Source: Clostridia bacterium (GTDB taxonomy: Bacteria > Bacillota > Clostridia > Christensenellales > UBA1242). Taken from it: 55,074 nt of DNA. Location of the stretch: assembly GCA_045597505.1 (NCBI GenBank), contig JAZLKE010000015.1, positions 1 to 55,074 on the forward strand. Reading direction: 5' to 3'. Of this stretch, positions 18,649-38,970 are shown in pieces. Position numbers and translations under genes: made by a program. The notes below the pieces were generated by a model, which saw nothing but the letters and a program-made list of their open reading frames with translations, was not told where the DNA came from and did no database searches. Numbering within the stretch: position 1 is the first letter of the stretch; each line of letters begins with the position of its first letter.

Positions 18649-18773
18649 GTATGTGGCAATTATAACACCACCCGCGTTAAATGACAAGATAATTTGTACA
18701 TAATCTTGATATGAATTCCATAAAGTCAGTGGAAAAACTTGCCGAAAAAGCAAGAATGTATCATAATCAAAAT

Positions 18774-21035
18774 ATGAAACAAACCGAAGATTTTAGCACA
18801 CTGGACCGTTACTTCCGCGCCGCCAATTATTTATCTGTGGCGCAACTGTACTTACGCGACAATCCAATTTTGGAACGCCCACTGACCCGCGCGGATATTA
18901 AAGCCCGCATTTTAGGTCATTGGGGAACAGTTGTGGGTCAAAACTTTGTTTATACACATCTCAGTCGGGCAATTAAAAAGTTCGACCAAGATATGGTTTT
19001 AATTTCGGGTCCGGGTCATGGCGGTAACTTTTTTATTGCTAACGCTTATTTAGAAGGTACATACAGCGAAGTTTATCCAGAATACACGCGCGACAAAGCC
19101 GGCATGCAAAAACTATGTCGTGAGTTTTCTTATCCATGTGGCGTATCGTCCCATGTGGCACCCCAAGTTCCCGGTAGTATGCACGAAGGTGGCGAACTGG
19201 GTTATTCGTTGGCTCACGGTTTTGGCGCAGTTTTAGACCACCCGAATTTGGTGGCGGCGGTTATCGTGGGTGACGGCGAAGCCGAAACTGGTCCTTTGTC
19301 CGCCAGTTGGTGGGGCACCAAATTTTTGAATAGCCAAAAGGACGGAAATGTTTTACCAATTTTGCATTTGAACGGATACAAAATCGCAAACCCGACACTG
19401 CTCGCCCGAATTACACCCGAAGAGCGTCATCAATTTTTTGCGGGTTTAGGTTATGAAGCCATTGAAGTCGTGGTTGGTCGAAATCCCGCAGACATCATGC
19501 AAGACCACCAAAACATGGCGAACGCGATTGATTATTGTTTACAATGTTTCCGCACCAAAAACGGCAAACACCCAATGATTATTTTGAATTCGCCCAAAGG
19601 TTGGACTGGTCCCGTTACCGTGGACGGTCGCGCAGTTGCGGGTACTTTTAATTCGCACCAAGTGCCAGTTGATATGAGCCAACCACACCACGTACAAATT
19701 GTTCAAGATTGGTTACAATCTTATCGACCGCACGAATTATTTAATGCAGACGGTTCTTTACAAGCCGACATTGCGGCGTTCTGTCCAACGGGTAACCGCC
19801 GTTTATCCGCGAACCCATTAACCCGTGGTGGCAATCAATACACACCATTAAAACTGCCTCAAATTAAACCTTTTTTTGTGGACACCAAAGCGACCGTACA
19901 AGATATGAATGTGTTGTCAAATTATGTGGCGGCGGTCATGCAACTTAACCCCAACAATTTCCGTTTCTTTTGTCCTGACGAAGCCAAATCTAATCGCCTG
20001 TATGCTCCATTTACTGTGACCAACCGTGCTTGGCAAGCCGCGCGCTATCAATTCGATGAAGGTTTAGCACCCGACGGTCGTATCATGGACGGCATGCTTT
20101 CCGAACACATGTGCGAAGGCATGTTAGAAGGTTACACTTTAACTGGTCGCCATGGCTTTTTCGCCACCTATGAATCTTTTGGTCGCGTAGTCGACAGTAT
20201 GTTAAATCAACACGCGAAATGGTTAAAGCAAACCCGCTTAATGCCGTGGCGCACCCCATTACCGTGTATCAACTTTATTAACACCAGCCACACTTGGCAA
20301 CAAGACCACAACGGTTTCAGTCACCAAGACACTGGTATGGCAACTCATCTGTTAGACAAAGACCCACATGTCGTGCGTTGCTATTTCCCTGCGGACGCCA
20401 ATACTTTGGTGGCGGTCTTTGATCAGTGCTTACACGACACCAATAAAATCAATTTGATTACGGCTTCCAAGCACCCGACCCATGGTTGGCGTACGGGTGC
20501 GCAAGCCTTAGCCGACGTTAAAACTGGAATCAGCATTTGGCACGAAGAAACCAACCCCGACGTAGTTTTGGCTTGCATGGGCGACACCCCAACCACCGAA
20601 TGTATGGCGGCAATGAAAATTTTACAAGCTCAACTGCCGAACTTGAAAGTTCGTTTGGTCAACGTGATTGATGCGGGTATCTTGAACGGACGCGAAGACA
20701 GTTTGAACGATGTGGACTATGCGCGTTACTTTACTAACGACAAACCCGTGGTTTTTGTTACCCATACTTACCGCAGTTTGATTTACAGTTTAATTGTCAA
20801 ACGTCCAAACAGCCACCGCTACACTGTCAAAGGCTACCACGAAAACGGCGCCATTACGACCGCGTTTGATATGCGAGTATTAAACGAAATCGACCGCTTC
20901 CACATTGTAAAAGACGTCTTAGCCGCGACTACCCCGAACCCACAATTAGCAACCGCCATGGACGAACAATTAAAGCAACACCGAGCCTACATTGTGGAAC
21001 ACGGCATCGACCCCGAATGGGTGACAAACTTCTAA
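18774..21035 (+). CDS. xfp: Xylulose-5-P/fructose-6-P phosphoketolase
   Basis: RAANYLSVAQLYL, GHWGT, GPGHG, HEGGELGY, GDGEAETGP (TPP binding), QDHNGFSHQD. Confidence 0.96.
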   Translation: MKQTEDFSTLDRYFRAANYLSVAQLYLRDNPILERPLTRADIKARILGHWGTVVGQNFVYTHLSRAIKKFDQDMVLISGPGHGGNFFIANAYLEGTYSEVYPEYTRDKAGMQKLCREFSYPCGVSSHVAPQVPGSMHEGGELGYSLAHGFGAVLDHPNLVAAVIVGDGEAETGPLSASWWGTKFLNSQKDGNVLPILHLNGYKIANPTLLARITPEERHQFFAGLGYEAIEVVVGRNPADIMQDHQNMANAIDYCLQCFRTKNGKHPMIILNSPKGWTGPVTVDGRAVAGTFNSHQVPVDMSQPHHVQIVQDWLQSYRPHELFNADGSLQADIAAFCPTGNRRLSANPLTRGGNQYTPLKLPQIKPFFVDTKATVQDMNVLSNYVAAVMQLNPNNFRFFCPDEAKSNRLYAPFTVTNRAWQAARYQFDEGLAPDGRIMDGMLSEHMCEGMLEGYTLTGRHGFFATYESFGRVVDSMLNQHAKWLKQTRLMPWRTPLPCINFINTSHTWQQDHNGFSHQDTGMATHLLDKDPHVVRCYFPADANTLVAVFDQCLHDTNKINLITASKHPTHGWRTGAQALADVKTGISIWHEETNPDVVLACMGDTPTTECMAAMKILQAQLPNLKVRLVNVIDAGILNGREDSLNDVDYARYFTNDKPVVFVTHTYRSLIYSLIVKRPNSHRYTVKGYHENGAITTAFDMRVLNEIDRFHIVKDVLAATTPNPQLATAMDEQLKQHRAYIVEHGIDPEWVTNF

Positions 21036-27142: not shown

Positions 27143-28426
27143 TTAACGAATACCACGTTCAATGTTCATGATACGGTTGTATTTGCAAACACGTTCACCA
27201 CGAACAGGAGCGCCAGATTTAATAAATTCAGCATCGGTTGCGACCGCCAAATCAGCAATGATGGTATCACTGGTTTCACCACTGCGGTGAGAAATCATAA
27301 CTTTATAGTTATTGTTTTTCGCCAAAGCGATGGTTTCCAAAGTTTCGGTCAAAGAACCAATTTGGTTCAATTTAATCAAGATTGCGTTGCAAGCGCCCAT
27401 GTTGATACCTTTGGCTAAACGTTCTTTGTTAGTAACGAAGAAGTCGTCACCCACAATAGTAATACGGTTACCAATACGTTTGGTCAACGCCGCATAACCT
27501 TCCCAGTCGTTTTGATCCAATGGATCTTCAATTGATTTTAAGATTGGGAATTTTTCTACCAAGGAAGCGATATATTCAACGTATTCGCCACTTGGCAAAT
27601 CTTTCTTTTCGCCTTTCATTACATAGTGACCAGTTTCGCGATTGTAGAATTCCGAAGCAGCTACGTCCAAAGCCACGACAACATCTTTGACCGGAGTATA
27701 GCCTGCTTTTTCAATTGCGGCCTCAATCAATTCAATCGCACCAGCAATTGGGCTTTCGGTATCCAAACGTGGAGCAAAACCACCTTCATCACCAACCGCT
27801 GTAACCAAACCTTTTTCTGCCAAAATATTTTTCAAAGCTTGGGTAATTTCCGAAGCCATACGAACTTTGTCGGCAAAGGTTTTACCACTGATTGGTTGAA
27901 TCATAAATTCTTGGCAATCAATACCACTGTCGGCATGTTTACCACCGTTAATAATGTTGAAACTTGGAACGGTATTAACCACTGGGGCTTTACCTTTGTT
28001 CAACGGAGAGCGTTTACCGCCAACTTCTTCGTACAAATCAGCAATGTATTCAAACGGTTCTTGTCCTTTGTCCGCAGCGGCTGCATAAGCGCAAGCGCAA
28101 GATACACCCAAAATCGCGTTAGCACCCAATTTACCTTTGTTGTTGGTACCGTCCAAGTGGCACAATTCACGGTCGATTTTGATTTGTTCGCTGACATCTT
28201 TACCAATAAATTCTGGCGCAATAATTTTGTTAACATTTTCAACGGCTTTCAAAACACCTTTACCGTTAAAACGTTTTTTATCACCATCGCGCAATTCAAC
28301 TGCTTCCCATTCACCAGTTGAAGCACCGCTTGGCACACTGGCTTGGTGACCATTGACCCAAACAGTAACAGTTGGGTTACCACGACTGTCCAAAATTTCA
28401 CTGGCAACAATTTTTTCGATTTTCAT
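27143..28426 (-). CDS. eno: Enolase
   Basis: DSRGNPTV, VPSGASTG, GDEGGFAP, SHRSGET; SD AAGGAG. Confidence 0.98.
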   Translation of the reverse strand: MKIEKIVASEILDSRGNPTVTVWVNGHQASVPSGASTGEWEAVELRDGDKKRFNGKGVLKAVENVNKIIAPEFIGKDVSEQIKIDRELCHLDGTNNKGKLGANAILGVSCACAYAAAADKGQEPFEYIADLYEEVGGKRSPLNKGKAPVVNTVPSFNIINGGKHADSGIDCQEFMIQPISGKTFADKVRMASEITQALKNILAEKGLVTAVGDEGGFAPRLDTESPIAGAIELIEAAIEKAGYTPVKDVVVALDVAASEFYNRETGHYVMKGEKKDLPSGEYVEYIASLVEKFPILKSIEDPLDQNDWEGYAALTKRIGNRITIVGDDFFVTNKERLAKGINMGACNAILIKLNQIGSLTETLETIALAKNNNYKVMISHRSGETSDTIIADLAVATDAEFIKSGAPVRGERVCKYNRIMNIERGIR

Positions 28427-34197: not shown

Positions 34198-34784
34198 CTA
34201 TAATGTTTTTTCGTTATTCAAATTTTTATAAATACAATTTTTTCCGAGATTATCATTTATCATTGTTAGTTTTTTTACAAGATTGTCGTCATTACGAGCT
34301 CTAACTTCTTCCAAGATTAAAGATTGTTCGTTTGTTACAAAACAATGATTAACCGCACCATTTGGTGTTACAAATAAGTCCATATTCTTTGCACAAGTTT
34401 CACTAACATCATTAGAAATTTTAGCTGCTTCACAAGATGTCCTTGTTATTATAACATTATCACTCATGACTACCTTTCTGAGTTCTTGTGCGTTTTCTTT
34501 TAACCCAAGTTGTTCTAGCATGCTCTTAATTTCATGCATTGGTACAATTTTATCTTTATCATTCGCTAATTCATCAAATTGTCTATAAAGCAATGGTTCG
34601 CCACCTGTTATACTAATGCTTTTCCAATTAAAGTTATTTTTACAAACAGTAAATAGATATACATAATCATCTAATGTTAGGGTTGTCTTAATTTTATTAT
34701 TCAAACCTTCGTGATTGCAAAAACGCAATCATAATTACATGATTGCATTAAGAGAAAACGAAGTTCTTTATTTTTCATTTCCAT
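34198..34784 (-). pseudogene. Radical SAM (MoaA-like) gene, frameshifted in the CxxxCxxC motif and internally deleted
   Basis: MEMKNKELRFLLMQSCNYDCVF joins CNHEG...SITGGEPLL if one T is added to the T-run at about 34720; much of the barrel after GGEP is missing. Confidence 0.75.
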
Positions 34785-35644: not shown

Positions 35645-37180
35645 TTATTTCTGCGTAATCATGCTCGGGTTGAAATGTGGGTCAGACGGAATACCCATCA
35701 AATCGCAAATCGTGGCCGCCAAATTGGTCAAACCGTAAGTGCCAGCTTCTGTGTTCGCCATTTCAAATTCAGGCGAAGCAAACGGACAGATAGCAATCGG
35801 CACCAAGTTATTGGTATGCGAAGTTTTAACTTTGCCGTTTTCGTCGGTCATTTCTTCCGCGTTACCGTGGTCGGCAGTAATGATTAAGTTGACTTTATTT
35901 TTTTGACAAACGTTGTACAAGCGACCAACACATTCGTCCACAGTTTGGCACGCAATCACGGCGGCGTCAAATTCGCCACAATGCCCCACCATGTCGGGGT
36001 TAGGCAAATTGCATTTCAAGAAATCATAATCACCGCTTTCAATGTTTTCAATCAACTTGTCGGTAATTTCAATCGCTTTCATTTTGGGCGCTTTATTGTA
36101 AAGGTTATTCAATTTGTCACTGGGAATTTCTAACCAAGTTTCTAATTGCGGGTCGATAGGTGCGCTTTTATTACCGTTGAAGAAATAGGTCATGTGTCCG
36201 AACTTAACGGTTTCGGTCACAGTGTATTGGCGCGCGCCGTGTTCACATAACCAAGCGGTTAAAGTGTGGTTAATTACTGGTGGTTCGCAAAGGTAATTTT
36301 TTGGCAAATTCATTTCTGCGTCATATTGCAAAATACCCGCGAAGTAGCAATCTTTAATCAAGGCGCGTTGTTCGGCTGAGATAAAATCGCCATTATCAAA
36401 CATGCGCGCAGTTTCAACCGCACGGTCGCCGCGATAGTTCAACAGTAAAATTGCTTCCCCGTTTTTAATCAAATTGTCAGGGTCAATAATTGCAGGTGGT
36501 ACTTGTTCATCGGACAATGTAGGGTTGGCTTGATAAAAGTCATTTAAGTACGCGCGCCAATCGGTTACAATGGGTGCTTTACCCTGTACACAAACTTCAA
36601 ACGCTTTGGTCAACATTTCGGTTTGAGCTTGGTAACGATCCATAAAGATTTGACCACGACCACCAATCACTGTCAAGTGTGGCACTTGTGCCAAAAAATC
36701 GGCAGCCGAACGCGGGCTGACATCGCGACCATCGGTAATCGCAATCACACTGTACGGTAAGTTTTGTTGTTCGCATTGCTTGATTACTTTGAACAAATGT
36801 TCGATGTTACTATGCACGCGACCATTACTGCACAAAATGATAATGTTTAATTTAGGATATGTACTGATTTTTTGCCAAACTGCCGATTCAAAAATTTTGC
36901 CAGTTGCAAAAGCATCATTCAACAAAGACAAGCCTTGCTTAATCGTCACACCCGCACCCATTGCGTTGTGTCCGACTTCACTGTTACCCGCATCTTTCGC
37001 ACTGTCAAGCCCGACTTCGTGTCCACTGGCTTTAATTAAAGTGGTTAAGTGTTGGTTGCGGGCTTTGGTTAAATTCGGCATACCCGCCGCAACTACCGCG
37101 TTACCTTGTTCGCGTGGGCTGTAACCCAAACCGTCCATTACACATAAAACTGTACGCTTAAAATTATTTTTGTTGGTCAT
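35645..37180 (-). CDS. gpmI: 2,3-bisphosphoglycerate-independent phosphoglycerate mutase
   Basis: VMDGLG, GNSEVGH, TDGRDV, NPDMVGH, TADHGNAE, SHT. Confidence 0.95.
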   Translation of the reverse strand: MTNKNNFKRTVLCVMDGLGYSPREQGNAVVAAGMPNLTKARNQHLTTLIKASGHEVGLDSAKDAGNSEVGHNAMGAGVTIKQGLSLLNDAFATGKIFESAVWQKISTYPKLNIIILCSNGRVHSNIEHLFKVIKQCEQQNLPYSVIAITDGRDVSPRSAADFLAQVPHLTVIGGRGQIFMDRYQAQTEMLTKAFEVCVQGKAPIVTDWRAYLNDFYQANPTLSDEQVPPAIIDPDNLIKNGEAILLLNYRGDRAVETARMFDNGDFISAEQRALIKDCYFAGILQYDAEMNLPKNYLCEPPVINHTLTAWLCEHGARQYTVTETVKFGHMTYFFNGNKSAPIDPQLETWLEIPSDKLNNLYNKAPKMKAIEITDKLIENIESGDYDFLKCNLPNPDMVGHCGEFDAAVIACQTVDECVGRLYNVCQKNKVNLIITADHGNAEEMTDENGKVKTSHTNNLVPIAICPFASPEFEMANTEAGTYGLTNLAATICDLMGIPSDPHFNPSMITQK

Positions 37181-37916
37181 AATTAATCACTCCATAAAAT
37201 GAATCAATGTTTAAGGACGAACCCACAAAGAAGATACCGTCCAATTCGGGCAAAGCCATATAACTTTTAACGTTGGCTGGCGTAATTTGTCCACCGTACA
37301 AAATCGGTAAACTGGCGTCCAACGGATTATTTTTCAATTCCACCAAACATTTACGAATATGCTTAGTGACCATATCAATATAATCTGGTTTGGGTAAAAT
37401 ACCACGTTGTACCACCCAAATCGGACGATAGCAGACCACTAAACTGTCAATATTTGGTACGCCTAACAAAGCACTTTGTAATTGGCGTTTAACCACATCA
37501 AAGGTCAAATTGTTTTGGTTTTCTGACCAAGTTTCACCCACACACAAAACTGGCGTAATGCCATATTTTTGTAACAATTTAATTTTTTTATTAACGGCTT
37601 CGTCGGTTTCAAAATTTTGACGCCAAGTACCATCACCCACAATACAGTATTTTACGCCGTATTCTTTTAACAGTTGAACACTAAGTTCGCCCATACGTCC
37701 GCCGAATTCAATTTCGCTGACGTCTTGTGCGCCCAATTGTAAGGGCTTCGGCATTTTTAAGCGCGCAATTTCATAGTAGCACGCCGCTGGTGCCAAAACG
37801 ACTTCGGTCTTGTTTTTTAATTCCAAGCCACGTTTGTAAACTTCTTGGAAAAACTCCAAAACTTCTTTGGGTGTCTTGTTAGACTTCCAGCAAGCAAAAA
37901 AGATTGGTCTTCGCAT
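37164..37916 (-). CDS. tpiA: Triosephosphate-isomerase-fold protein with substituted catalytic residues
   Basis: Position pgk-tpi-gpmI; WK, LGAQD, LCVGET, ILYGG retained; GHSERR replaced by GDGTWR and YEPVWAIGTG by YRPIWVVQRG. Confidence 0.8.
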   Translation of the reverse strand: MRRPIFFACWKSNKTPKEVLEFFQEVYKRGLELKNKTEVVLAPAACYYEIARLKMPKPLQLGAQDVSEIEFGGRMGELSVQLLKEYGVKYCIVGDGTWRQNFETDEAVNKKIKLLQKYGITPVLCVGETWSENQNNLTFDVVKRQLQSALLGVPNIDSLVVCYRPIWVVQRGILPKPDYIDMVTKHIRKCLVELKNNPLDASLPILYGGQITPANVKSYMALPELDGIFFVGSSLNIDSFYGVINYDQQK

Positions 37917-37917
37917 T

Positions 37918-38970
37918 TTATTTTTCTCCTTTTTTCTTTAAGCACGCAATGCCTGGCAAAGTCGTGCCTTCGACAAATTCTAAAGCCGCACCGCCCCCAG
38001 TGGACACGTGCGTGAATTTGAAATTTTTAACTGCGGCCGCAGTATCACCACCACCAACCACACTGACCGCGCGACTGTTAGCCACTAATTCGGCAACCGC
38101 GCGAGTACCGTTACCGTTTTGCGGGTCCACATCAAATTGACCTAATGGACCATTCCAAAAAATGGTTGCACTGTTTTGAATAATCGGACGCCAAGTTTCT
38201 ACCGTCGTCATGGAAATATCCAAACCTTGGTCGGGTGCAATCAAAATTTTGGCACGACGTTTCACACCATCATCTTGCCAATCTTGCGCGATGCGACCAC
38301 CCACCAAAAGATAGTCCGCGCGTTCCGCCAACTTTCGCGCCAAAGGCAACTTGTCCGCCACTTTTTTTCCGCCAATGATGACAGTAAACGGACGTTTAGG
38401 ATTGTGAGTAATTTGACTGAGTTGTTCAATTTCGCGTGCCATTAGCAAGCCCGCATAACTGGGTAAGTAATTAGCCACCCCCACAGTGCTGGCGTGTGCG
38501 CGGTGTGCAGCACCAAAAGCATCGTTAACAAAGATTTCTCCCAAGTGTGATAACTGCTCAGCAAAGTTCGCGTCGTTTGCGGTTTCTTCGGATTGGAAGC
38601 GCGTATTTTCTAATAAGAGCACACTACCATTCGGCATATTCGCCGCTTGTTCTTCGATGGCTTGACCAACGGTCGCGGGTGCAAATTGAACGACAATCCC
38701 GGGCAGTAATGTTTGCAAATGTTCGTAAACTGGACGCAAAGAGTACTTAGCGTCGGGCTTACCTTCCGGACGACCAAAGTGACTGCATAAAACAACTTTG
38801 GCACCGCGTTCCAACAAATAGCGCACGGTTGGTAAACTGTCGACCATGCGTTTATCGTCGCTGATTTTTCCGTCCGCGGTCATCGGGACATTGTAATCAA
38901 CACGCATTAACACGCGTGTACCTGTTTTAATTGGCGCGTCCCCCACACCGGCAACCTGTATTTTCTTCAT
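37918..38970 (-). CDS. pgk: Phosphoglycerate kinase (short, 350 aa)
   Basis: RVDYNVP, SHFGRP, LLENTRF, NDAFGAAHRAHAS, WNGPLG, GGGDT, STGGGA. Confidence 0.95.
   Translation of the reverse strand: MKKIQVAGVGDAPIKTGTRVLMRVDYNVPMTADGKISDDKRMVDSLPTVRYLLERGAKVVLCSHFGRPEGKPDAKYSLRPVYEHLQTLLPGIVVQFAPATVGQAIEEQAANMPNGSVLLLENTRFQSEETANDANFAEQLSHLGEIFVNDAFGAAHRAHASTVGVANYLPSYAGLLMAREIEQLSQITHNPKRPFTVIIGGKKVADKLPLARKLAERADYLLVGGRIAQDWQDDGVKRRAKILIAPDQGLDISMTTVETWRPIIQNSATIFWNGPLGQFDVDPQNGNGTRAVAELVANSRAVSVVGGGDTAAAVKNFKFTHVSTGGGAALEFVEGTTLPGIACLKKKGEK

What the first reader, a model, noticed from the sequence alone, without database searches (positions are those of the whole stretch)
37164..37916. Full-length TpiA with catalytic His and Glu replaced (pseudo-enzyme or new function)
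Seen: an intact 250-aa ORF in the pgk-tpi-gpmI operon, with NWK->CWK, GHSERR->GDGTWR (His95 to Asp), YEPVWAIGTG->YRPIWVVQRG (catalytic Glu165 to Arg, lid loop altered), YGGS->YGGQ and VGGASL->VGSSL. Established: these residues are essentially invariant in active TIMs. Inference: the barrel is retained for a non-isomerase role; the acid/base charge swap hints at a new ligand or a regulatory role.
Basis: partly seen in the sequence, partly recalled or inferred. Interest (0 to 1): 0.75.

Follow-up and report, generated by a model that had tools for sequence, protein, structure and literature searches.

The report
Conserved glutamate-less TIM paralogue beside pgk
The gene in the triosephosphate isomerase slot of this gut bacterium's glycolytic operon is an intact, strongly conserved TIM-fold protein that has lost the enzyme's catalytic residues, so it probably does a different and still unknown job.

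Summary
Window 37164-37916 encodes a 250-aa TIM-family protein between pgk and gpmI. It has Asn11->Cys, His95->Asp, Glu165->Arg, an altered lid and altered phosphate loops. Lys13 is kept.

It is not decay. Fourteen orthologues in the genus give dN/dS of about 0.04, as low as gpmI and lower than pgk. It belongs to one clade of Glu165-less TIM paralogues in four genera of small-genome, uncultured gut and rumen Clostridia. That clade always holds the ancestral operon slot. In three of these genera, and in one basal genome of the window's own genus, it sits beside a separate canonical TIM.

The window's lineage has a phosphoketolase. No fructose-bisphosphate aldolase, PFK or canonical TIM was found, and its PGK is shortened. 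Related phosphoketolase lineages deleted tpi cleanly, so a TIM is dispensable in this family; this gene was kept.

My best reading, at 0.45, is a TIM-dead protein that binds a phosphorylated ligand and works with PGK and GpmI. That it is not the cell's isomerase I put at about 0.8. Rivals are new chemistry, or a weak isomerase feeding GpsA.

I found nothing in print. Two earlier reports of this scan describe the same clade in other genomes.

The parts
37164..37916 (-). Glu165-less TIM-family paralogue (250 aa), the finding itself
   Evidence: ORF. Pfam PF00121 at 174.8 bits. Below every NCBIfam TIM equivalog cut-off. AF2 model pLDDT 94.7. dN/dS about 0.04.
37632..37634 (-). Codon 95: Asp in place of the electrophile His95
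   Evidence: Position computed from the ORF start. D in 14 of 14 crown orthologues, H in the 10 other members of the clade, H in all 119 canonical rows of that alignment.
37425..37427 (-). Codon 164: Arg in place of the catalytic base Glu165
   Evidence: R in 17, Q in 5 and M in 2 of 24 clade members. E in all 119 canonical rows.
37884..37892 (-). Codons 9-11 (Cys-Trp-Lys): Asn11 replaced, Lys13 kept
   Evidence: K invariant in all 143 rows. The Asn11 position reads C11, T5, S4, A2, N2 within the clade.
37918..38970 (-). pgk, unusually short (350 aa), immediately upstream
   Evidence: Pfam PGK at 376.2 bits in two stretches. Two deletions in the nucleotide-binding domain. All 15 g1 genes are 348-353 aa, against 376-431 aa in 47 others.
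37926..37929 (-). GGAG ribosome-binding site for the TIM-like gene, inside the end of pgk
   Evidence: Read from the sequence. The pgk stop TAA is at 37918-37920, then one base, then the ATG at 37914-37916.
35645..37180 (-). gpmI (cofactor-independent phosphoglycerate mutase), start overlapping the TIM-like gene's end by 17 nt
   Evidence: TIGR01307 at 355.6 bits, above its 330.65 cut-off. Junction read.
27146..28426 (-). Enolase (metabolic context)
   Evidence: Enolase_C at 345.3 bits and Enolase_N at 167.3 bits.
18711..21032 (+). Phosphoketolase XFP, the likely source of glyceraldehyde-3-P in this lineage (metabolic context)
   Evidence: XFP_N at 463.9, XFP at 256.6 and XFP_C at 186.9 bits. 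Present in 17 of 18 g1 genomes.

Best explanation
The gene encodes a dimer-type TIM barrel that no longer isomerises triose phosphates. It has been kept for another job tied to the PGK and GpmI steps.

Shown:
- It is the descendant of the operon's own tpi.
- It lost the catalytic Glu in an ancestor, while a separate canonical TIM existed in the same genomes.
- It then stayed under strong purifying selection.
- In this genus it was remodelled further (Glu165->Arg, later His95->Asp, Glu97->Thr, lid GTG->QRG) as the lineage acquired a phosphoketolase and lost aldolase, PFK and the canonical TIM.
- The parts that grip a phosphate and close the lid are kept: Lys13, the loop-6 hinges Pro166 and Trp168, Gly173, and Tyr-Gly-Gly of loop 7.
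- The proton-transfer residues are gone, and the pocket has become more positive.

Inferred: it binds, without turning over, an anionic phosphorylated three-carbon metabolite of the lower glycolytic trunk. 3-phosphoglycerate, 2-phosphoglycerate, PEP and 1,3-bisphosphoglycerate are the obvious candidates. By doing so it buffers, hands over or regulates flux at the PGK/GpmI steps.

I put the broader claim 'not the cell's triose-phosphate isomerase' at about 0.8. The specific ligand-binding, non-catalytic mechanism I put at 0.45.
For: Catalytic residues.
- Glu165, His95 and Asn11 are replaced and Lys13 is kept.
- The protein scores below all NCBIfam TIM equivalog cut-offs, for example TIGR00419 at 101.9 against 130.6.

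Selection. dN/dS has a median of 0.043 (range 0.011-0.092; 74 usable of 91 pairs). In the same 13 genomes the values are 0.040 for this gene and 0.077 for pgk; gpmI gives 0.042 in 12 of them.

One origin. All 23 Glu-less sequences form one branch with SH-aLRT 99 (quick tree).

Coexistence with a real TIM. Seven genomes in four genera carry both forms: G007, G020, G023, G050, G092, G095 and G134. In them the Glu-less copy sits after pgk. The three canonical copies whose loci I fetched (G007, G020, G023) have no pgk or gpmI within the 2-3.7 kb read.

A TIM is dispensable in this family.
- 10 of 121 family genomes have no PF00121 hit, and 8 of those have phosphoketolase and lack aldolase.
- Of the five of these whose pgk locus I fetched, G047, G044 and G090 have gpmI directly after pgk, G080 has the two fused in one frame, and G130 has no gpmI beside pgk.
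- G047 still has GAPDH and GpsA.
- So an unneeded tpi gets deleted, while this gene was kept.

After the canonical TIM was lost, the protein moved further from TIM: His95, Glu97 and the lid tip were replaced and then fixed in 12-14 of 14 crown genomes.

Gripper residues that are invariant across the clade: W10, K11, P165, W167, G172, Y207 (92%), G208, G209.

Solved canonical TIMs exist in complex with 3PG, 2PG, PEP and glycerol-3-P (entry titles). The pocket can therefore hold such ligands.

The gene is tightly coupled to both neighbours.
Against: - No ligand, partner or activity has been tested here. The ligand identity is pure inference.
- G000 and G005 have GpsA and GAPDH, and G000 also has PlsY and PlsX. 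Yet none of seven DHAP-supplying families was found in them: class II and class I FBA, DeoC/LacD, TAL/FSA, Dak1, class II aldolase, FGGY kinases. The class I FBA control rang in no control genome. A metabolic gap therefore exists that a TIM activity would fill.
- Three genomes of the genus have aldolase but no canonical TIM in their assemblies: G006, G012 and G016, at 82-89% completeness. G016 also lacks the variant. G001 has a partial aldolase at a contig edge. This fits a residual activity, or simply missing contigs.
- Selection as strong as on true enzymes would also fit a new catalytic role.
- Only about a fifth of the proteome (139 ORFs, contigs C1-C10) plus part of the window was annotated. 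The genome is 91.4% complete.
Confidence: 0.45

Rival explanations
1. It is an enzyme with new chemistry. The remodelled pocket (Lys13, Asp95, Arg164, Gln170, Arg171, Gln210, and the clade-specific Cys162) would catalyse a different reaction on a phosphorylated metabolite linked to the phosphoketolase and lower-glycolysis route.
For: - Constraint is as tight as on the neighbouring enzymes.
- The new polar residues are fixed in the crown group: D95, W98, R164 and Q170 in 14 of 14.
- Ala163->Cys is present in 23 of 24 clade members, against Ala in 97% of canonical TIMs.
- The lid hinges are conserved, as expected for a ligand-gated active site.
Against: - Across the whole clade the would-be catalytic positions are not conserved. 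Position 165 is R, Q or M, position 95 is D or H, and position 11 is C, T, S, A or N. That is unlike a fixed catalytic set.
- No candidate reaction is suggested by the neighbours, which are the same pgk and gpmI as for ordinary tpi.
- No non-TIM family or fold match exists to borrow a function from.
Confidence: 0.2
2. It is still the cell's triose-phosphate isomerase, at low activity or with a shifted mechanism (for example Asp95 as base). It would supply the small DHAP flux needed by GpsA for glycerol-3-phosphate and lipids in a phosphoketolase-based metabolism.
For: - It is the only PF00121 homologue in the genome.
- Glyceraldehyde-3-P is available from phosphoketolase. GpsA, PlsY and PlsX are present. 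No other DHAP source was found among seven families searched.
- G006 and G012 have aldolase and only the variant.
- 13 of 34 family genomes with phosphoketolase and without aldolase keep a high-scoring canonical TIM, so TIM remains useful in that lifestyle.
Against: - Base, electrophile and Asn11 are all replaced, and the lid tip that seals the enediolate is changed.
- From my own knowledge, not from any call: single Glu165 or His95 replacements cost TIM several orders of magnitude in rate.
- The Glu-less paralogue coexisted with a canonical TIM in seven genomes, so it was not the isomerase there.
- After the canonical copy was lost it drifted further from TIM and did not hold on to His95, Glu97 or the lid.
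- Eight TIM-less genomes with phosphoketolase and without aldolase show that no TIM homologue is needed. G047 has GpsA and the same negative results for all seven DHAP sources.
Confidence: 0.15
3. It is a decaying relic of tpi, made redundant by the switch to the phosphoketolase pathway, on its way to being lost.
For: In the family, TIM is missing or low-scoring in 18 of 34 genomes that have phosphoketolase and lack aldolase. It is low-scoring in 7 of 75, and missing in none, of the genomes that have aldolase and lack phosphoketolase. Selection on tpi is therefore relaxed in that lifestyle.
Against: - The frame is intact in all 17 full-length orthologues of the genus. The one stop flagged, in G001, lies at the gene's own end, where a 248-aa frame stops like the others.
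- dN/dS is about 0.04 with synonymous sites saturated.
- The Glu loss predates the pathway switch: it is found in genera with aldolase and without phosphoketolase.
- Truly unneeded copies were deleted cleanly elsewhere.
Confidence: 0.03

Closest known systems
Bacterial triosephosphate isomerase TpiA (EC 5.3.1.1; Pfam PF00121, TIGR00419)
   Same: - Homologous over its whole length (PF00121 positions 2-244 of 245).
- Same fold, with TM about 0.9 to 1yya, 3uwu and 4y8f.
- Same operon slot between pgk and gpmI.
- Keeps Lys13, the loop-6 hinges, the YGG of loop 7, and dimer-loop residues Q64, G76 and E77.
   Different: - Lacks Glu165, His95 and Asn11.
- Lid tip, Ser211 and Gly232 are changed.
- Scores below every NCBIfam TIM equivalog cut-off.
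- In sister genera it coexists with a true TpiA.
PGK-TIM fusion protein of Thermotoga (NCBIfam NF010569, bifunctional phosphoglycerate kinase/triosephosphate isomerase)
   Same: - NF010569 is the best NCBIfam match for both this protein (164 bits) and the upstream PGK (389.7 bits).
- The best solved PGK match is the Thermotoga enzyme 1vpe.
- It shows, as precedent, a physical PGK-TIM association.
   Different: - Here there are two separate genes, with a stop codon, one base and a ribosome-binding site between them.
- Scores are far below the 883-bit cut-off.
- The Thermotoga TIM part is catalytically canonical (recalled from my own knowledge, not tested here).
Catalytically dead enzyme paralogues (pseudoenzymes), e.g. 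the AdoMetDC 'prozyme' of trypanosomes
   Same: A paralogue that lost its catalytic residues yet is conserved. It arose beside an active copy. The prozyme is described in the abstract of PMC6221367, which I saw in the listing.
   Different: - In the window's lineage the active partner is gone, so activation of a catalytic paralogue by heterodimerisation cannot be its present role.
- No partner has been shown.
Other TIM homologues without catalytic residues noted earlier in this scan (Saganbacteria extra copy e1-2868833; permuted module in Omnitrophota giant genes e1-1921442)
   Same: Each is a TIM barrel that has lost the catalytic Glu and yet is conserved (AI notes that I did not check).
   Different: They come from different lineages and contexts. 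None sits in the pgk-gpmI slot, and none is the sole TIM homologue of its genome according to those notes.

Membership tests
Triosephosphate isomerase (EC 5.3.1.1; PF00121 / TIGR00419) | Sequence homology to the TIM family over the full barrel | tested here: met
   PF00121 at 174.8 bits against a cut-off of 20.1, profile positions 2-244 of 245.
Triosephosphate isomerase (EC 5.3.1.1; PF00121 / TIGR00419) | Reaches a curated equivalog score (same function expected) | tested here: not met
   TIGR00419 101.9 against 130.6; NF000722 121.9 against 293; NF011163 120.3 against 298.
Triosephosphate isomerase (EC 5.3.1.1; PF00121 / TIGR00419) | Catalytic base Glu165 | tested here: not met
   Arg164 in this protein. 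All 119 canonical rows have Glu. The clade has R17, Q5, M2.
Triosephosphate isomerase (EC 5.3.1.1; PF00121 / TIGR00419) | Electrophile His95 (and its partner Glu97) | tested here: not met
   GDGTWR in place of GHSERR. D95 in 14 of 14 crown orthologues.
Triosephosphate isomerase (EC 5.3.1.1; PF00121 / TIGR00419) | Asn11 and Lys13 at the end of strand 1 | tested here: inconclusive
   Lys is kept and invariant. Asn is replaced by Cys, and the position varies within the clade (C, T, S, A, N).
Triosephosphate isomerase (EC 5.3.1.1; PF00121 / TIGR00419) | Phosphate gripper: lid loop 6 (PxWAIGTG), loop 7 (YGGS), loop 8 (GG) | tested here: inconclusive
   Hinges P165 and W167, G172 and Y207-G208-G209 are kept. 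The lid tip is QRG for GTG, Ser211 becomes Gln, and the first Gly of loop 8 becomes Val.
Triosephosphate isomerase (EC 5.3.1.1; PF00121 / TIGR00419) | TIM-barrel fold | tested here: met
   AF2 pLDDT 94.7 and pTM 0.92. Foldseek top hits are all TIMs, with TM 0.87-0.93.
Triosephosphate isomerase (EC 5.3.1.1; PF00121 / TIGR00419) | Interconverts DHAP and glyceraldehyde-3-P | not testable with these tools
   Needs an enzyme assay or complementation.
Bifunctional PGK/TIM fusion (NF010569) | PGK and TIM in one polypeptide | tested here: not met
   A TAA stop, one base, then an ATG with its own GGAG. Scores are 164 and 389.7 against a cut-off of 883.
Pseudoenzyme (conserved non-catalytic paralogue) | Catalytic residues lost, yet under purifying selection | tested here: met
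Pseudoenzyme (conserved non-catalytic paralogue) | No catalytic activity of any kind | not testable with these tools
   Needs biochemistry. New chemistry is not excluded.

The most novel reading that the evidence does not exclude
The charge-swapped pocket is a working active site: Asp at the His95 position, Arg at the Glu165 position, and an Arg on the lid. On this reading the sole TIM homologue of these phosphoketolase-dependent bacteria catalyses triose-phosphate isomerisation, or a related new reaction on a phosphorylated C3 acid, with relocated catalytic residues. That would be a natural re-invention of the catalytic machinery of one of the most intensively studied enzymes.
Probability: 0.12. 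Interest if true: 0.9.

Novelty: new variant of a known kind. Interest (0 to 1): 0.66.

Why it matters
TIM is the textbook 'perfect enzyme', and its Glu165/His95/Lys13 set is treated as invariant. A clade of TIMs has lost the base. It then stayed as conserved as its neighbouring enzymes and outlived the true TIM in its genomes. This points to an unrecognised second use of the TIM barrel in central metabolism.

There is also a practical side. Pfam places these genes in the TIM family although they fall below every NCBIfam TIM equivalog cut-off. Annotation that goes by family membership alone would therefore credit these abundant gut and rumen Clostridia with a triose-phosphate isomerase step they probably lack. 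I did not check how public records label them.

The family also offers a natural experiment with many replicates. Glycolysis via aldolase has been replaced by phosphoketolase. Across lineages, tpi has been kept, degraded, deleted or repurposed, and PGK has been shortened or fused to GpmI.

Tried and rejected
- Complex prediction of PGK (alignment A2) with the TIM-like protein (alignment A1). Score 0.00 in both runs and verdict 'no answer'. This says nothing either way.
- ESM Atlas look-alikes outside PF00121: no usable hit.
- Expression. One metatranscriptome library (X20) has contigs nearly identical to parts of pgk (38230-38390) and gpmI (36277-36417). Nothing lies on the TIM-like gene, and DNA carry-over in the library cannot be excluded. 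No conclusion on transcription.
- Class I aldolase (PF00274). No hit, but the control rang in no control genome, so this search is uninformative.
- Whole-proteome Pfam annotation of G000. I fetched the genome as loci but scanned only the first batch of 139 ORFs (contigs C1-C10) and 33 window ORFs. I replaced the rest with targeted family searches because of output size, so an unexpected DHAP source could have been missed.
- Programmed frameshift fusing PGK to the TIM-like protein, as in Thermotoga. I considered it because of the A-rich junction. I rejected it as unnecessary, since a stop, a spacer base, a GGAG and an ATG are all in place. In several relatives the longer upstream open frames are just the overlapping frame of pgk.
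- Another genetic code or a sequencing error as the cause of the odd residues. Rejected: the same residues recur in 14 species-level genomes at 82-96% identity, with saturated synonymous change.
- The careful maximum-likelihood search did not finish in the time allowed. The tree cited is the quick IQ-TREE search.
- Literature. Four searches and one passage look-up (PMC4207490, which concerns an ordinary TIM in a microcompartment locus). None turned up a description of a natural Glu165-less TIM paralogue.
Full report
**1. The observation**

The ORF lies at 37164..37916 on the minus strand (250 aa). The plus-strand reading of the same coordinates is full of stops. It is a full-length member of the TIM family (PF00121, 174.8 bits). 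It falls below every NCBIfam TIM equivalog cut-off, for example TIGR00419 at 101.9 against 130.6.

- Asn11->Cys, with Lys13 kept;
- GHSERR->GDGTWR (His95->Asp, Glu97->Thr);
- YEPxWAIGTG->YRPIWVVQRG (Glu165->Arg, lid tip changed);
- YGGS->YGGQ;
- loop 8 GG->VG.

pgk ends one base before this gene's ATG, and a GGAG lies about 10 nt upstream. gpmI starts 17 nt before this gene's stop. AlphaFold2 gives a confident TIM barrel (pLDDT 94.7). Its best structural matches are all TIMs, with TM about 0.9.

**2. How unusual it is**

A profile-free search of 1.84 billion representative proteins gave 13,052 relatives. Among the best 150, 146 have Glu165 and 149 have His95. The four without Glu belong to this clade. 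The window's own genome is 835,513 bases in 43 contigs and 91.4% complete. It has no other PF00121 gene.

**3. The clade**

Seventeen of 18 other genomes of the genus (g1), plus G000 itself, carry an orthologue.

In a sample of 121 genomes of the family, Glu165-less TIMs occur in four genera. g1 has Arg, g6 and g33 have Gln, and g3 has Met. All other TIMs in the family keep Asn/Lys/His/Glu, though some have degraded loops. The 23 Glu-less sequences form one branch with SH-aLRT 99. This is a quick IQ-TREE search; the careful one did not finish.

pgk-tpi-gpmI is the ancestral order in the family and the order. The Glu-less gene follows pgk in every clade locus read except G006. In seven genomes (G007, G020, G023, G050, G092, G095, G134) a second, canonical TIM is present. 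The three such copies whose loci I fetched (G007, G020, G023) have no pgk or gpmI within the stretch read.

Inside g1 the order of branching is G006, G007, G012, then a crown of 14. The three basal genomes keep His95 (GHREKR or GHWEKR). The crown has GDGTWR and the QRG lid.

**4. Selection**

Among the 14 crown orthologues, dN/dS (Nei-Gojobori) has a median of 0.043 and a range of 0.011-0.092. This uses 74 of 91 pairs; the rest had saturated dS. In the same 13 genomes pgk gives 0.077 and this gene 0.040; gpmI gives 0.042 in 12 of them. This is not decay.

Sites invariant in canonical TIM that stay invariant in the clade include W10, K11 (Lys13), Q64, G76, R99, G127, Y163, P165, W167, G172, G208, G209 and G227. 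The replaced sites are fixed in the crown, with D95, W98, R164 and Q170 in 14 of 14. Ala163->Cys is present in 23 of 24 members.

**5. Metabolic setting**

Presence and absence in G000 and the g1 genomes searched:

| Function | Result |
|---|---|
| Class II FBA | not found in G000 and 12 of 18 other g1 genomes |
| PFK | 0 of 6 g1 genomes |
| Transketolase | not found (the one weak hit is DXS) |
| DeoC/LacD | not found |
| TAL/FSA | not found |
| Dak1 | not found |
| Class II aldolase | not found |
| FGGY kinases | not found |
| KDPG aldolase | not found |
| Glycerate kinase | not found |
| GAPDH | present |
| Enolase | present |
| Pyruvate kinase | present |
| GpsA | present |
| PlsY, PlsX, DXS | present |
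| Full-length phosphoketolase | present, in this window |

Phosphoketolase is present in 17 of 18 other g1 genomes and in none of 12 genomes from other families of the order.

Across the 121 family genomes, aldolase and phosphoketolase are nearly exclusive. There are 75 with FBA only, 34 with XFP only, 6 with both and 6 with neither.

TIM state follows this split:

| Genome class | Canonical | Low-scoring | None | Variant + canonical | Variant only |
|---|---|---|---|---|---|
| FBA only (75) | 63 | 7 | 0 | 5 | 0 |
| XFP only (34) | 13 | 10 | 8 | 0 | 3 (g1) |

In three TIM-less genomes pgk is followed directly by gpmI. In G080 the two are fused in one frame.

So in this family a TIM becomes dispensable once phosphoketolase replaces the aldolase route, and unneeded copies are removed. 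The g1 gene was not removed.

**6. Reading**

The Glu-less copy arose while a true TIM was present. It was therefore not the isomerase then. It kept the phosphate-gripping and lid-hinge residues. It lost the proton-transfer residues. In g1 the pocket became more positive, with Arg at position 165 and Arg on the lid.

Solved TIMs bind 3PG, 2PG, PEP and glycerol-3-P in this pocket (entry titles). Replacing the Glu carboxylate by Gln, Met or Arg should favour carboxylate-bearing phospho-acids. That last step is inference.

Together with the conserved, translationally coupled position between pgk and gpmI, I take the most likely role to be a non-catalytic binder of a lower-glycolysis phospho-metabolite that works with PGK and GpmI (0.45).

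Alternatives are:
- new chemistry (0.2);
- a weak isomerase that feeds GpsA (0.15), since the DHAP gap in G000 is real but TIM-less G047 shows the same gap;
- a relic (0.03).

**7. PGK**

All 15 g1 PGKs are 348-353 aa, against 376-431 aa in 47 others. Two deletions of about 24 and 25 residues lie in the nucleotide-binding domain. This change is specific to the genus, where position 165 is Arg. It prompted the complex prediction, which returned no verdict.

**8. Known or new**

Four literature searches found no description of a natural Glu165-less TIM paralogue.

Two earlier reports of this scan (e1-4569516 and e1-3554530) describe the same clade in two other genomes and reached the same core reading. 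I re-derived that reading independently here. This report adds four things:
- the switch from aldolase to phosphoketolase;
- the clean tpi deletions and the PGK-GpmI fusion in sister lineages;
- the stepwise order of residue changes;
- the shortened PGK.

The organisms are uncultured Clostridia/Eubacteriales from rumen and gut, according to the record titles of 13 related loci.

Noticed in passing
window 37918-38970 (-): PGK is only 350 aa. All 15 PGKs of the genus are 348-353 aa, against 376-431 aa in 47 relatives. Two deletions of about 24 and 25 residues lie in the nucleotide-binding domain. From recall, they remove segments that line the adenine pocket in other PGKs. The gene is still under purifying selection (dN/dS 0.077).
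   Followed up: partly
window 18711-21032 (+): Full-length phosphoketolase (XFP_N, XFP, XFP_C). In 121 family genomes, aldolase and phosphoketolase are almost mutually exclusive (75 / 34 / 6 both / 6 neither). TIM is lost or degraded mainly in the phosphoketolase group.
   Followed up: yes
L148:1-2154 (-) (G080): PGK and cofactor-independent phosphoglycerate mutase are fused in one open frame in a TIM-less relative. In G047, G044 and G090, pgk is directly followed by gpmI, with tpi cleanly gone.
   Followed up: partly
L064-L071, L077, L078, L080 (relatives G121, G053, G070, G079, G104, G152, G049, G043, G108, G066, G086): Sole TIM genes in the pgk-gpmI slot, most of them in phosphoketolase-type genera. 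They keep Glu165 and, in most, His95, but have degraded lids or the GHSERR motif (for example YEPPIEGGPEN, GHKFDKK). They score only 118-213 bits on PF00121. Whether they are active or decaying was not examined.
   Followed up: no
G000 contig C18:39185-40138 (outside the window): The pyruvate kinase open frames of the genus are only 342-358 aa, against 541 aa in an outgroup. The C-terminal regulatory domain seems to be missing.
   Followed up: no
G000 contig C22:4476-25352 and C1 (L084:9404-15598): A giant open frame of about 6,900 aa and a 2,065-aa ORF without any Pfam hit at E <= 1e-25, in an 835-kb genome.
   Followed up: no
window 34198-34728 (-): A 176-aa ORF with only a weak, sub-threshold radical-SAM match over its first 60 residues (19.7 bits against a cut-off of 29.5). 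It may be a truncated or divergent radical-SAM protein, and it lies next to a NUDIX gene downstream of gpmI.
   Followed up: no
window 37164-37916 (-), residues 9, 91, 125, 162: Four cysteines sit at or near the catalytic face of the barrel. Cys162 replaces a 97%-conserved Ala in 23 of 24 clade members, and Cys91 is present in 96% of the clade. This could be simple packing, or a redox or metal site. The geometry could not be checked.
   Followed up: no
G006, G012, G016, G001 (genus relatives): These four genomes of the genus have a class II aldolase, but no canonical TIM was found in their assemblies (82-89% complete). G016 also lacks the variant. This is either missing contigs or aldolase working without a canonical TIM.
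   Followed up: no
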